The notes under the pieces are model-generated. The model was not told the DNA's origin, ran no database searches, and saw nothing but the letters and a program-made list of their open reading frames with translations. Below, one piece after another: positions 27,343-30,017 of a DNA stretch of 64,000 nt (within the stretch, counting starts at the first letter, position 1; every line of letters begins with the position of its first letter). The translations under genes were made by a program, and so were the position numbers. The stretch lies in the IMG/VR virus record IMGVR_UViG_3300048502_000015, positions 32,001-96,000 of that record; one strand, written 5' to 3'. Source of the DNA: a virus (taxonomy: Duplodnaviria > Caudoviricetes).

Positions 27343-27583
27343 ATAAATATAGATAACCGGGCGCTAAACCCAGTGGTTCTAATCACCCGCTTTATAGACC
27401 CTATATGTATTGTCTACGAATAGGCGGGGAGTCATCGCCATCCAGGGGGTTATTGGCCCACCTAAGTCTAAATCAAACTTCTGAAGTATCTTAGATCCTG
27501 GTCAGGCTGCGGATTGATTTGTGCCCCGGAGGGTTATTCCTTTTCGGAACCGCGTGGTTTATCTATGTTTTACTGCTTTCAAC

Positions 27584-27613
27584 AGTATATCAGACTTTCT
27601 GATGTCCTGTCAA
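27584..27613 (-). promoter_or_regulatory. near-consensus sigma70/SigA promoter for tRNA operon
   Basis: TTGACA-18-TATACT with extended TG. Confidence 0.85.
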
Positions 27614-27614
27614 G

Positions 27615-27688
27615 TACCCCTGGAGAGATTCGAACTCCCGACCTAGCCGGTAGAAACGGCTTGCTCTAATCCACTGAGCTACAAAGGC
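27615..27688 (-). tRNA. tRNA-Arg(TCT)
   Basis: AGCCG-TT-TCT-AC-CGGCT. Confidence 0.92.
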
Positions 27689-27754
27689 AAGATGGTTGTT
27701 TGTATTTTAGCGGCCATTCCATACCGCTTCTATAAGATATCATACTTCCAATTC

Positions 27755-27790
27755 AAAAAACAAGGCCCCAGAAATAAATTTCGGAGGCCC
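27755..27790 (-). terminator. intrinsic terminator (attenuator 3:4 stem)
   Basis: GGGCCTCCGAAAT-TT-ATTTCTGGGGCCT followed by TGTTTTTT. Confidence 0.75.
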
Positions 27791-27819
27791 TTGGGTCCAA
27801 GCATATTGGTTCCCAAGGA

Positions 27820-27879
27820 TTACAAGGCAAAGCCTCTTTGCGAATAATTCGGTAGTAATACTGGATCAGACATGTTCAT
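27820..27879 (-). CDS. putative 19-aa leader peptide MNMSDPVLLPNYSQRGFAL
   Basis: Follows TTGACA-18-TACACT promoter (27888-27917); ends just before terminator. Confidence 0.5.
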   Translation of the reverse strand: MNMSDPVLLPNYSQRGFAL

Positions 27880-27950
27880 ATATTATCAGTGTAGCATATT
27901 CTATTTTGTAGTGTCAATGAGGAATTAATTTGTGGGGCCGTCCGCGATAA

Positions 27951-28058
27951 TCATCTATACCAACGATCAGTCCATGGTCCAACAGTAGCGCTCCATATGA
28001 AAATTCCAATCCAACATATGATAACACCGCTAAATGTGATAACAAGCACTTCAATCAT
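27951..28058 (-). CDS. 35-aa TM peptide
   Basis: MIEVLVITFSGVIICWIGIFIWSATVGPWTDRWYR*; ATGA-coupled to MTase; SD AAGGAGG. Confidence 0.5.
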   Translation of the reverse strand: MIEVLVITFSGVIICWIGIFIWSATVGPWTDRWYR

Positions 28059-28630
28059 TCAGTCCTCCTTGTAGACCTTGAGTACCCGTCCGGCAATAAA
28101 ACACCTTCAAGCGGAACGACTGCACCATGCGCGCGAAACGCCTCAGAGAACGCGTCCAGATCGCACCCGTAGTAGATGACAGCACAAGACATTGGGGCGC
28201 CTTTGTGGTCCGGTCTTCCTGCGATATAGAATTTGACCCGAGGTTCGTAGAGGAAGCAAACTGCGGCGGCTCGCGGATACACGAAGCGTTTCCAATGGCT
28301 GGTGTTGGTAGCGACTGGGACGAGCGCGATGACCTCTGATCCTGCGGCCGCTGCCTCTGCGATCCGCGCGAACCAGTCCAGGATCCGAGTGCCCCTCTGT
28401 TGGTCGGAACCGTACGGCGGGTTGACATAGATCCGTTGGTAGTCCCACGACTCAGCCAGGCCATCGTGCTCGGGGAGTTCGTAGCTGACGCGCGCGCCCA
28501 CCACCGAGTGAGCATTGGAGCACGGGTCGAGATCAATGTCGCCTCCGAACGTCCGTCGGACGGACGCGAGAAGCGCAGGTGGTGTGCACCAATCCTTCGT
28601 CTCAGTGACTGATTGTCGGCCTGCGGTCAT
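28055..28630 (-). CDS. phage Dam-like N6-adenine DNA methyltransferase
   Basis: DWCTPP, DLDPC, YVNPPY motifs. Confidence 0.85.
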   Translation of the reverse strand: MTAGRQSVTETKDWCTPPALLASVRRTFGGDIDLDPCSNAHSVVGARVSYELPEHDGLAESWDYQRIYVNPPYGSDQQRGTRILDWFARIAEAAAAGSEVIALVPVATNTSHWKRFVYPRAAAVCFLYEPRVKFYIAGRPDHKGAPMSCAVIYYGCDLDAFSEAFRAHGAVVPLEGVLLPDGYSRSTRRTE

Positions 28631-28661
28631 GCGCGTTCAGCCTTAGTCCGGTTCTCGTCGC

Positions 28662-28841
28662 TCATTCGCTAGACCCGACCATCCACGGATCATCGTCTGT
28701 GCCGATCACGTCGTTGCCATCGGTCGGCAATGAAGTCTCGAACGGTGGGACTAGCTCGTGCTCGTACGCTGCCTGGTCGCCGCTCCGCGTCGGCGGCGTA
28801 ATCGGCCCGTCCATTATCCAGTCAGCGAGCTTGTCAGGCAT
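28662..28841 (-). CDS. 59-aa acidic hypothetical protein
   Basis: MPDKLADWIMDG...SSE*; below ORF-track cutoff; coupled to upstream ORF. Confidence 0.4.
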   Translation of the reverse strand: MPDKLADWIMDGPITPPTRSGDQAAYEHELVPPFETSLPTDGNDVIGTDDDPWMVGSSE

Positions 28842-29247
28842 CTGGCTTTCCTTCCTGCCTCTCAGACCCCAAAGCGCTCAACGGCTGATAATCGGGGATT
28901 GAGCGCCAGACGCCGTGATCGAGCCAGCCATGCCAGCCAGCGGGCGAATCGAAGACCGAAGGCGTCACGGTGATCGAGCAGCCCCGAGTGTGACCTATCG
29001 CAGCCGCCCGTTCCCTCTCGTCAGCCGGGCTACTCCCGAGCGGGTCGCCAGCCGACACGGCGCCGTCATCGTGTTCGGTGACCGACCAACGATCATCTAG
29101 ACGTCCGAGCACGCCAGTCGGCAGACATACCCACCAGTAGAGATCGGTGGGGTCCGCGACGCCCTTACCGGCGCGACCATAGTCCCCTGGTTCGTAGTCG
29201 TTGGGCACCGTACCGATGGGGACGCGCCTGCCCTGTAGCTCAGTCAT
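28834..29247 (-). CDS. hypothetical protein (DUF6527-like C-terminus)
   Basis: WSVTEHDDG...ITVTPSV...WHGWLDHGVW; SD GAAAGGAG. Confidence 0.5.
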   Translation of the reverse strand: MTELQGRRVPIGTVPNDYEPGDYGRAGKGVADPTDLYWWVCLPTGVLGRLDDRWSVTEHDDGAVSAGDPLGSSPADERERAAAIGHTRGCSITVTPSVFDSPAGWHGWLDHGVWRSIPDYQPLSALGSERQEGKPDA

Positions 29248-29512
29248 CGTCGCTCCTTTCCAGAATCCGTAGCGCCTCGGCGCAGACGATCCACTCTGAC
29301 CGGCCCAGACGCTCACGTAACACGGCCTCCCGGCTCTCCTTTTCGAGTTCTTCTCTGATCTGCTGATAGAGGCCGGGAAGGGCAGCCGCGAGGATTAGTT
29401 TCGTGATGCGCTGATCGAGCAGAATTACCGGATTCGTCATTCCGATGTTCCGTCGCTCTCTCCCGAGTATCCTCGCTCCAATTTCTATCGCTTCTTTGCT
29501 TGGCTCGATCAT
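29240..29512 (-). CDS. hypothetical protein
   Basis: Translationally coupled small ORF. Confidence 0.5.
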   Translation of the reverse strand: MIEPSKEAIEIGARILGRERRNIGMTNPVILLDQRITKLILAAALPGLYQQIREELEKESREAVLRERLGRSEWIVCAEALRILERSDDD

Positions 29513-29712
29513 CCTACCATTTCTCCGTGTAGCGGGCAAATATAGGAGTACCCGGTCTTTAGGACCATCTGCTTACCGCAAGACGAATACTCGCCTTCCT
29601 TCTTTGCAGTATTAGCATGACATACTGCTGTTTCGTTTACTACATGGCTTCCAGAAAGAGGAGAAGTCTTTCTCCCCGATCCGGGATTATATCCTCTAGA
29701 TGTTTGCATCAT
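29509..29712 (-). CDS. small Zn-ribbon protein
   Basis: CH..CGKQM...ICPLHG. Confidence 0.5.
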   Translation of the reverse strand: MMQTSRGYNPGSGRKTSPLSGSHVVNETAVCHANTAKKEGEYSSCGKQMVLKTGYSYICPLHGEMVG

Positions 29713-30017
29713 AGCTTCACCAGATCCTCAAACGTAAAGCCCCGTCCGTAGACATGATGCCCGTCAAAGTAGTCCTCGATTCCGTCATCGAAGAGAATTG
29801 TAACTCGCGGAGGCCAGTATACAGAACGGCCTTCGTCGTCAACATCTCCATCCGGATCGCTAAGCTGGATGATAACTCCCGACGATTCCTCTACAGGAAT
29901 CTTGTTAGGACCAGCAAGCCTTACTCGATCACCCTTGTCGAATGATTCCCATTCGGCGTCGTGATATCCATAGGCATCTGGCGGACCTTCATATTCACCT
30001 TGTTCAAAATAATTCAT
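29709..30017 (-). CDS. acidic hypothetical protein, leaderless
   Basis: TGCTATACT-6nt-ATG. Confidence 0.6.
   Translation of the reverse strand: MNYFEQGEYEGPPDAYGYHDAEWESFDKGDRVRLAGPNKIPVEESSGVIIQLSDPDGDVDDEGRSVYWPPRVTILFDDGIEDYFDGHHVYGRGFTFEDLVKL

What the first reader, a model, noticed from the sequence alone, without database searches (positions are those of the whole stretch)
27755..27917. Rare-codon leader-peptide attenuator at the head of the tRNA island
Seen: a TTGACA-18-TACACT promoter, then a near-leaderless 19-codon ORF containing GTA-TTA-CTA and AGA (rare in high-GC hosts), then an intrinsic terminator. The ORF's late segment GAGGCTTT can pair 8/8 with AGGGCCTC, the terminator's 5' arm, forming an antiterminator. 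Inference: a ribosome stalled at the rare codons leaves the antiterminator free, so tRNA shortage or cleavage would switch on read-through into tRNA-Arg(TCT) and the operon. Caveat: further promoters lie downstream (about 27740 and 27584).
Basis: partly seen in the sequence, partly recalled or inferred. Interest (0 to 1): 0.72.

Follow-up and report, generated by a model that had tools for sequence, protein, structure and literature searches.

The report
Translated leader before phage tRNA genes
A strong early promoter, a tiny translatable reading frame, a hairpin and a transcription stop signal sit in a fixed arrangement in front of this phage's tRNA genes and in seven related phages. This suggests, but does not prove, that transcription into the tRNA genes is tied to how well ribosomes are working.

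Summary

Seven related uncultured phages share the layout but not the sequence. In each, an 18-28-codon ORF stops 0-2 nt before a hairpin (H2) that abuts the terminator. Chance gives this in 2-5% of shuffles per genome. A scan of 3.24 Mb found it six times, always just upstream of tRNA-Arg(TCT). The ORF looks translated, and the peptides use unusually many different amino acids.

- The GTA-TTA-CTA/AGA codons occur only in the window and are ordinary codons in this phage.
- The proposed antiterminator is not conserved and is weaker than the terminator.
- Most genomes, this one included, have another promoter-like box between the terminator and the tRNA, and a strong promoter follows the tRNA.

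My best reading (about 0.4) is a translation-coupled leader of the whiB7/trp kind that senses general decoding speed. A stand-alone micro-gene is almost as likely (about 0.3).

Other agents in this scan reported similar leader ORFs before tRNA arrays in unrelated phages. I found no published account.

The parts
27888..27917 (-). Promoter P1: -35 TTGACA, 18-nt spacer with an extended TG, -10 TACACT
   Evidence: A promoter 150-290 nt upstream of tRNA-Arg(TCT) recurs in 6 of 9 syntenic genomes.
27820..27879 (-). Near-leaderless 19-codon ORF (ATG 8 nt after the -10; stop TAA at 27822-27820)
   Evidence: Equivalent ORFs of 18-28 codons end 0-2 nt before H2 in all 8 genomes. They show third-position bias and frame-preserving indels.
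27832..27844 (-). Window-specific candidate antiterminator strand (UUCG at 27844-27841 and GAGGC at 27836-27832) inside codons 12-16
   Evidence: It pairs with 27788-27780 in the nascent RNA (P about 0.9). It is not conserved in relatives.
27789..27818 (-). Hairpin H2: 7-bp basal stem (CCUUGGG with CCCAAGG) plus a 4-bp apical stem. It starts 1 nt after the stop codon and abuts the terminator.
   Evidence: The shape is conserved with different stem sequences (z -2.9 to -6.3 in 7 of 8 genomes). A ribosome on the last codons or the stop melts it.
27754..27788 (-). Intrinsic terminator: stem-loop 27788-27765, T-rich tail 27763-27754
   Evidence: It is homologous in position, and partly in sequence, to the terminator that directly follows the RNR gene in L019, L022 and L023.
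27734..27742 (-). Extended -10 box (TGATATCTT) between the terminator and the tRNA; a weak candidate promoter, P1b
   Evidence: The same kind of box is present in L013-L017 and L023. In L015 and L016 it ends 7 nt before the tRNA's 5' end.
27614..27688 (-). tRNA-Arg(TCT), the first gene of the 34-tRNA plus tmRNA island
   Evidence: Rfam tRNA, 61 bits. It is the first tRNA, followed by tRNA-Tyr, in 8 related genomes.
27584..27613 (-). Promoter P2 (TTGACA-18-TATACT, extended TG), starting right after the tRNA-Arg discriminator base
   Evidence: Conserved at the same junction in L003 and L020.

Best explanation
This is a translation-coupled leader cassette sitting on the old terminator/promoter boundary in front of the tRNA array.

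Proposed mechanism:
1. Host RNA polymerase starts at P1, and the transcript begins at or within 2 nt of the AUG.
2. A ribosome translates the 19 codons and ends 1 nt before hairpin H2.
3. Most transcripts stop at the terminator, giving an RNA of about 125 nt.
4. The fraction that reads on into tRNA-Arg(TCT) and beyond depends on where the ribosome is when the polymerase reaches the terminator.

In the window, an untranslated or early-stalled leader lets the end of the ORF pair with the terminator's 5' arm. In the relatives, H2 itself holds a strand that would otherwise lengthen the terminator stem, and only a ribosome at the stop codon frees it.

The quantity sensed is general decoding speed (the peptides sample many amino acids), not a set of rare codons.

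Shown: the elements, their conserved geometry and the coding signature. Inferred: translation in vivo, and any switching at all.
For: - Geometry: the ORF stop lies 0-2 nt before H2, and H2 abuts the terminator, in 8 of 8 genomes. Per-genome chance is 0.02-0.05, and the product over five lineages is about 6e-8.
- Specificity: the composite signature occurs 6 times in 3.24 Mb, always just upstream of tRNA-Arg(TCT). Tandem hairpins are not this phage's usual terminator style.
- The ORF is kept while peptide sequence turns over. Third-position bias is 11 of 17 changes (p=0.008), and the indels are 3 and 6 nt.
- Amino-acid diversity is above that of the phage's own protein windows in all 8 peptides. 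L020 uses 19 of 20 amino acids (p=0.0016); Fisher combined p=2e-4.
- Leaderless starts are used for real genes.
- A ribosome at the stop melts H2.
- H2's 3' arm can extend the terminator by 2-8 pairs.
- L020 has no promoter between the terminator and the tRNA.
- Precedent: the actinobacterial whiB7 uORF/terminator leader.
Against: - No conserved antiterminator was found. At equilibrium the terminator forms at every ribosome position.
- The window's antiterminator is 4-7 kcal/mol weaker than the terminated fold, and its p of 0.024 is one of eight tests.
- The competition between H2 and a longer terminator stem is no better than chance in the window and clearly non-random only in L003.
- There is a promoter-like box after the terminator in 6 of 8 genomes, and the strong P2 follows the tRNA.
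- The window's own peptide is not unusually diverse (p=0.33).
- L003, L013-L017 and L014 share peptide similarity, so they are not fully independent.
Confidence: 0.4

Rival explanations
1. It is a stand-alone early micro-gene. P1, the short ORF, H2 and the terminator form a complete unit whose product is an 18-28-residue peptide, or a dual-function small RNA. The terminator simply insulates it from the tRNA array, which has its own promoters.
For: - It has its own strong promoter and its own terminator.
- The ORF has a coding signature, and the peptides of L003, L013-L017 and L014 resemble each other.
- An extended -10 box follows the terminator in 6 of 8 genomes, placed exactly 7 nt before the tRNA 5' end in L015 and L016. 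P2 follows the tRNA.
- The terminator-plus-promoter boundary exists without the ORF in L019, L022 and L023.
- Released attenuator RNAs and leader peptides can act in trans (PMC6614838, PMC7968998).
Against: - The peptides of the window and of L020 do not align with the others.
- The peptides are hydrophilic and more diverse in amino acids than real protein segments.
- H2, and the strict stop|H2|terminator abutment, have no role in this reading.
- In L020 the tRNA has no promoter of its own.
Confidence: 0.3
2. One reading: ribosomes stall at GTA-TTA-CTA or AGA when those tRNAs are scarce or cleaved. The 8-bp pairing of the late ORF segment with the terminator's 5' arm then forms, and read-through switches on the array.
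For: - The four codons are enriched against the phage's own gene usage (4 observed, 0.82 expected; p=0.01).
- The phage encodes tRNAs for TTA, CTA and AGA.
- A high-GC actinobacterial host is plausible: the portal protein is 38-44% identical to those of Mycobacterium, Rhodococcus and Gordonia myoviruses.
- The nascent-RNA fold gives the right logic.
Against: - The codon set was chosen after seeing the sequence. Against local base composition, p=0.07.
- The codons are absent from the relatives' ORFs.
- A stall at AGA (codon 15) would cover the antiterminator strand and favour termination, which is the wrong direction for tRNA-Arg(TCT).
- The 8-bp form costs 8.7 kcal/mol relative to the MFE and requires melting H2.
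- No tRNA-Val(TAC) for GTA was found in the window.
Confidence: 0.1
3. It is a non-coding small RNA of about 125 nt (a 5' single-stranded region, then hairpins and a terminator). The ORF is incidental.
For: - The multi-hairpin architecture is typical of small RNAs.
- There is a weak full-length Rfam match to Spot 42 (27 bits, E=0.006).
- In several relatives the 5' region pairs with the 3' tail.
Against: - The Rfam score is far below the gathering threshold of 80.
- The ORF is retained in 8 of 8 genomes with frame-preserving indels and third-position bias.
Confidence: 0.1
4. It is only the terminator of the upstream operon, with a promoter and a chance ORF in front of it.
For: - In L019, L022 and L023 the same terminator directly follows the RNR gene.
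- A 19-codon ORF by itself is unremarkable.
Against: The ORF, H2 and their spacing are conserved across lineages whose sequences no longer align.
Confidence: 0.05

Closest known systems
whiB7 5' leader of mycobacteria and other Actinobacteria (uORF-mediated transcription attenuation)
   Same: - A short uORF is followed by a rho-independent terminator.
- Efficient uORF translation favours termination, and translation stress favours read-through.
- The uORF sequence varies between species.
- The host range is probably actinobacterial.
(10.1101/2023.06.02.543512.)
   Different: - whiB7 has a defined antiterminator and an alanine-enriched uORF, and it controls a protein-coding gene.
- Here the downstream genes are tRNAs and no conserved antiterminator was found.
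- The ORF is often leaderless, and its peptides are diverse, not enriched for one residue.
Classical leader-peptide attenuators of amino-acid operons (trpL, hisL, pheL and others)
   Same: The order is promoter, short translated leader, hairpins, intrinsic terminator, then downstream genes on the same strand. Ribosome position decides the RNA fold. (As described in 10.1101/834739.)
   Different: - Those have runs of regulatory codons and a stable, conserved 2:3 antiterminator, and the leader ORF overlaps segment 1.
- Here the ORF ends just before the first conserved hairpin.
- No codon run is conserved.
- There are promoters downstream of the terminator.
Leaderless short-ORF attenuators of mycobacteria (Ms5788A type)
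   Same: A leaderless short ORF is the first element of the transcript and acts through ribosome occupancy, in Actinobacteria (10.1101/834739).
   Different: That system is translational. The end of the sORF pairs with the Shine-Dalgarno sequence of the next gene, and it senses cysteine through a polycysteine tract. Here the next gene is a tRNA and a terminator is present.
Stress-induced tRNA array of Anabaena sp. PCC 7120
   Same: A supernumerary tRNA array whose expression rises when translation is impaired (PMC8421152).
   Different: Regulation there is by direct repeats in the promoter, probably a repressor site. The paper has no occurrence of 'leader peptide' or 'attenuat'.

Membership tests
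Ribosome-mediated (leader-peptide) transcription attenuator | A short ORF close to the transcription start that ribosomes can translate | tested here: met
   The ATG lies 8 nt after the -10. Five long ORFs in the same genome start 6-7 nt after extended -10 promoters, and a Pfam-confirmed gene does so in L003. The ORF has a coding signature. Translation itself has not been shown.
Ribosome-mediated (leader-peptide) transcription attenuator | An intrinsic terminator between the leader ORF and the downstream genes, on the same strand | tested here: met
   A -11.8 kcal/mol stem followed by a T-rich tail. The same is seen in 7 relatives, though the T-tracts of L003 and L014 are poor.
Ribosome-mediated (leader-peptide) transcription attenuator | An antiterminator fold that excludes the terminator and depends on ribosome position | tested here: inconclusive
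   - Window: a nascent-RNA helix with P about 0.9, blocked by a ribosome at codons 12-17, but 4-7 kcal/mol weaker than the terminated fold.
- It is not conserved (p 0.3-0.8 in 7 relatives).
- Competition between H2 and a longer terminator stem is possible but mostly not above chance.
Ribosome-mediated (leader-peptide) transcription attenuator | Leader codons matched to the signal being sensed | tested here: not met
   The GTA/TTA/CTA/AGA run is in the window only. An alternative signal, high amino-acid diversity, is present across the family (Fisher p=2e-4) but not in the window's own peptide (p=0.33).
Ribosome-mediated (leader-peptide) transcription attenuator | Downstream genes depend on read-through (no promoter in between) | tested here: not met
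   An extended -10 box lies between the terminator and the tRNA in 6 of 8 genomes, including the window, and P2 follows the tRNA. The feature is met only in L020.
Ribosome-mediated (leader-peptide) transcription attenuator | Read-through changes with leader translation in vivo or in vitro | not testable with these tools
   No expression data are available. The phage is uncultured.
Leaderless short-ORF translational attenuator (Ms5788A type) | The 3' end of the sORF pairs with the ribosome-binding site of the next ORF | tested here: not met
   The next gene is tRNA-Arg, which has no ribosome-binding site.
Spot 42 small RNA (RF00021) | Rfam score at or above the gathering threshold | tested here: not met
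   27.1 bits against a threshold of 80.

The most novel reading that the evidence does not exclude
Large phages of this actinophage-like clade gauge the cell's overall decoding speed with a tiny, often leaderless ORF that samples many amino acids. The ORF's stop codon is parked against a hairpin, and that hairpin controls how fully the terminator can form. Slow ribosomes would therefore let the strong early promoter read into the tRNA array. This would be leader-peptide attenuation applied to tRNA genes. Together with the scan's notes on unrelated phages, it would be a widespread and unpublished way of controlling phage tRNA supply.
Probability: 0.35. Interest if true: 0.75.

Novelty: new variant of a known kind. 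Interest (0 to 1): 0.5.

Why it matters
Why phages carry large tRNA sets, and how they regulate them, is an open question. The known regulated tRNA array (Anabaena) uses a promoter-level repressor. A ribosome-read leader in front of a phage tRNA array would mean that the phage measures translation capacity directly and tops up tRNAs on demand, for example when hosts cleave or deplete tRNAs as a defence.

If it instead turns out to be a micro-gene, it is still a conserved, very early, probably abundant transcript of unknown function in a clade of uncultured 160-kb phages.

This instance also shows that the layout can be conserved while the proposed switch helix is not. That is a caution for similar calls elsewhere in the scan.

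Tried and rejected
- DNA search of deposited phages with the locus: only the tRNA matched.
- The upstream Dam-like gene as an anchor: no relatives in viral or genome contigs.
- Junction pattern in metagenomes: one false positive, a bacterial tRNA-Glu cluster.
- Pattern from the window's terminator in viral contigs: no hits.
The sister contig carrying the identical RNR protein, and the many Logan contigs with 70-75% RNR identity, could not be fetched.
- MAFFT/RNAalifold alignments of the leaders or of H2 plus the terminator do not keep the stems in register. I used per-sequence folds and shuffles instead and built no covariance model.
- The weak Rfam Spot 42 match was rejected.
- An his-type shifted-register model was rejected, because H2 and the terminator abut with no loop between them.
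- Direct occlusion of the terminator by a ribosome was rejected, because the stop codon lies about 30 nt upstream of the terminator stem.
- Cluster C mycobacteriophages (Yucca, Myrna) have tRNA-Arg(TCT) near the end of their arrays and nothing similar before the first tRNA.
- The plus-strand ORF at 27692-27847 has no support.

Full report
CONTEXT
The window is bases 32001-96000 of a single 160,424-bp virus record rated complete, with about 47% GC. It carries 34 tRNA genes and a tmRNA, all on the minus strand between 11751 and 27688. Its portal protein is 38-44% identical to those of the large tRNA-rich myoviruses of Mycobacterium (cluster C), Rhodococcus and Gordonia. An actinobacterial, probably high-GC host is therefore a fair inference, but it is not shown.

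THE OBSERVATION
On the minus strand, one search shows the following, with coordinates confirmed:
- P1: -35 at 27917-27912, 18-nt spacer with TG, -10 at 27893-27888.
- An ATG at 27879, 8 nt after the -10, opening a 19-codon ORF that stops at 27822-27820.
- Hairpin H2 at 27818-27789.
- A terminator stem at 27788-27765, with a T-rich tail at 27763-27754.
- An extended -10 box at 27742-27734.
- tRNA-Arg(TCT) at 27688-27614.
- P2 at 27613-27584.

Only 16 loose sigma-70-type matches exist in the whole genome. P1 and P2 are the two with TTGACA, an 18-nt spacer and an extended TG. The genome has about 11 canonical hairpin-plus-T-tract terminators, and this is one of them. Only one other has an abutting upstream hairpin.

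RELATIVES
The locus has no DNA-level relatives among deposited phages apart from the tRNA. I aligned RNR proteins from the large protein collection and used the alignment to fetch 80 viral contigs. In eight of them the tRNA array begins Arg(TCT) then Tyr(GTA), as it does here: L003, L013-L017, L020 and L023.

The leaders do not align with the window outside the tRNA and P2, but they share an architecture:
- A promoter with an extended -10 lies 150-290 nt before the tRNA in 6 of 9 genomes.
- An ORF of 18-28 codons has its stop 0-2 nt before a bipartite hairpin, and that hairpin directly abuts a terminator-like stem.

The chance of such an ORF ending at the foot of H2 is 0.02-0.05 per genome. 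It is present in 8 of 8, and the product over five lineages is about 6e-8. That figure overstates independence, because L003, L013-L017 and L014 have similar peptides.

H2 folds much better than shuffles in 7 of 8 genomes (z -2.9 to -6.3), using different stem sequences. A scan for the full composite signature over 3.24 Mb of both strands (all fetched loci plus the genome) returned six hits, all immediately upstream of tRNA-Arg(TCT). L003 and L017 fell just under the thresholds, and there were no hits elsewhere.

EVOLUTIONARY ORDER
In the more distant L019, L022 and L023, the RNR stop is followed by a homologous terminator and then an extended -10 promoter, with no P1, short ORF or H2. So terminator-plus-promoter is the older boundary in front of the array. 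The P1-ORF-H2 module is an addition that uses that terminator.

IS THE ORF TRANSLATED?
- Five long ORFs (69-474 codons) in this genome begin 6-7 nt after good extended -10 promoters.
- A cREC_REC-domain gene in L003 begins 9 nt after one.
- Leaderless expression is therefore normal in this clade, and it is common in mycobacteria (10.1101/834739, PMC4633059).
- Among the alignable relatives, the ORF's indels are 3 and 6 nt. Substitutions concentrate at third positions: 11 of 17, p=0.008.

This supports translation, but it is not proof.

1. Codons. GTA, CTA, TTA and AGA are ordinary in the phage's own genes. Four in 19 codons is more than gene usage predicts (p=0.01), but not clearly more than the local base composition predicts (p=0.07). 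The set was also chosen after the fact. The relatives' ORFs have zero or one such codon, and five have no Arg codon at all.
2. Antiterminator. With the 8-bp pairing forced, the RNA is 8.7 kcal/mol worse than the MFE. At equilibrium the terminator forms with P 0.87-1.0 for every ribosome position in the window, and stays predominant in the relatives, with dips to about 0.6 in L015 and L016. The ribosome's only consistent effect is to melt H2 when it reaches the last codons.
3. Kinetic view. In the nascent window RNA, before the terminator's 3' arm exists, a 5+4-bp helix (GAGGC with GCCUC, UUCG with CGAA) encloses H2 and ties up the terminator's 5' arm with P about 0.9. The arm is sequestered at 0.72-0.80 with no ribosome or an early one, and at 0.12-0.25 with the A site at codons 12-17. 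However, the helix is 4.2-7.3 kcal/mol weaker than the terminated state. Its statistical support is p=0.024 in one of eight tests, and the seven relatives show nothing comparable (p 0.3-0.8). A stall at AGA itself would cover the antiterminator strand.
4. Gating. An extended -10 box follows the terminator in 6 of 8 genomes, including the window. In L015 and L016 it ends exactly 7 nt before the mature tRNA 5' end, and P2 follows the tRNA. Only L020 lacks any promoter between the terminator and the tRNA.

SENSOR-LIKE TRAITS
Earlier notes from this scan on unrelated phages suggested a further test, so I checked amino-acid diversity. All eight peptides have more distinct residues than equal-length windows of this phage's proteins (mean z +1.64):
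- L020 uses 19 of 20 amino acids in 28 residues (p=0.0016).
- L003 has p=0.02 and L014 p=0.03.
- The window's peptide is unremarkable (13 of 19; p=0.33).
- Fisher's combination over five lineages gives p=2e-4.

The double abutment (stop|H2|terminator) also asks for an explanation. H2's 3' arm can instead extend the terminator stem by 2-8 pairs (a gain of -3.3 to -10.9 kcal/mol), so H2 and a longer terminator exclude each other. A ribosome at the stop codon would tip the balance towards the longer terminator. Against composition-matched tails, however, this is clearly non-random only in L003, and in the window it is at chance level.

VERDICT ON MECHANISM
- Best reading, about 0.4: a translation-coupled leader of the whiB7/trp kind that reports general decoding speed. 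The implementation is lineage-specific: the ORF-to-arm helix in the window, H2 against the extended terminator elsewhere.
- Stand-alone early micro-gene or dual-function small RNA that merely uses the boundary terminator: about 0.3. The trpL RNA and peptide of Sinorhizobium show that such products can act in trans.
- A purely non-coding RNA: about 0.1.
- A chance ORF at an operon terminator: about 0.05.

KNOWN SYSTEMS AND NOVELTY
The element meets two defining features of leader-peptide attenuators: a translatable promoter-proximal ORF and an intrinsic terminator. It is inconclusive on the antiterminator. It fails on conserved regulatory codons and on dependence of the downstream genes on read-through. 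I therefore do not file it as a proven attenuator.

A full-text search found no paper describing a leader peptide in front of a tRNA operon or phage tRNA array. The Anabaena stress-induced tRNA array is controlled at its promoter. Cultured cluster C phages lack the arrangement. Other agents of this scan have reported promoter/short-ORF/terminator cassettes before tRNA arrays in several unrelated phages. Those are unchecked notes, not evidence, but they make this a recurring theme. Within that theme, this is a weaker and instructive case: the geometry is conserved and the switch helix is not.

LIMITS
There are no expression data and the host is unknown. The folding tests are thermodynamic snapshots, not kinetic simulations.

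Noticed in passing
window 28000-30000: This stretch is 57% GC against 44-49% elsewhere in the window. It holds a Dam-like N6-adenine methyltransferase (PF05869, E=6e-13) and small ORFs. The methyltransferase has no relatives in viral or genome contigs by the pattern scans, and L003 lacks the whole block (its RNR-to-tRNA gap is only 740 nt). It is probably a recent insertion.
   Followed up: partly
L015:14938-14977 and L016:13555-13590: An extended -10 box (TGTTATCAT or TGCTATCAT) ends exactly 7 nt before the mature 5' end of tRNA-Arg(TCT). Transcription may therefore start at the tRNA's first base, with no 5' leader for RNase P to remove.
   Followed up: no
window 27584-27614; L003:12529-12560; L020:12908-12940: Promoter P2 begins immediately after the tRNA-Arg discriminator base in three diverged genomes (the -35 abuts the tRNA 3' end, and no CCA is encoded). 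In L020 the first 8 transcribed bases after the -10 are identical for P1 and P2.
   Followed up: partly
L003:12441-12446, L013, L014, L017 upstream of tRNA-Arg; window about 27566-27571 after P2; L020 after P2: A short ACATAG motif recurs a few to about 25 nt upstream of tRNA-Arg, or just downstream of P2. It may be a start-site or processing signal.
   Followed up: no
window 27844-27846 and the equivalent ORFs in L003, L013-L017, L020: Every one of the eight leader ORFs has exactly one tyrosine codon, always TAT. tRNA-Tyr is the second gene of the array. This may be inheritance or chance.
   Followed up: partly
window 27951-28058 (minus strand): A 35-codon hydrophobic ORF with a strong Shine-Dalgarno sequence. 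Its start overlaps the stop of the Dam-like gene, and it ends 34 nt before P1. It is probably a small membrane protein.
   Followed up: no
window 13122 (minus strand); G000:C1 18782(-), 103471(+), 109961(+), 120142(+): Long ORFs (69-474 codons) start 6-7 nt after extended -10 promoters, so this phage expresses several genuine genes as leaderless mRNAs.
   Followed up: partly
window 27614-27688: The acceptor stem of tRNA-Arg(TCT) has G1-U72 and three further G-U pairs. G1-U72 is also present in L003.
   Followed up: no
L019:11700-11930: In L019 the boundary terminator and promoter after RNR are followed by a small hydrophobic ORF with a strong ribosome-binding site before the first tRNA (Tyr). 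This differs from the Arg-first clade.
   Followed up: no
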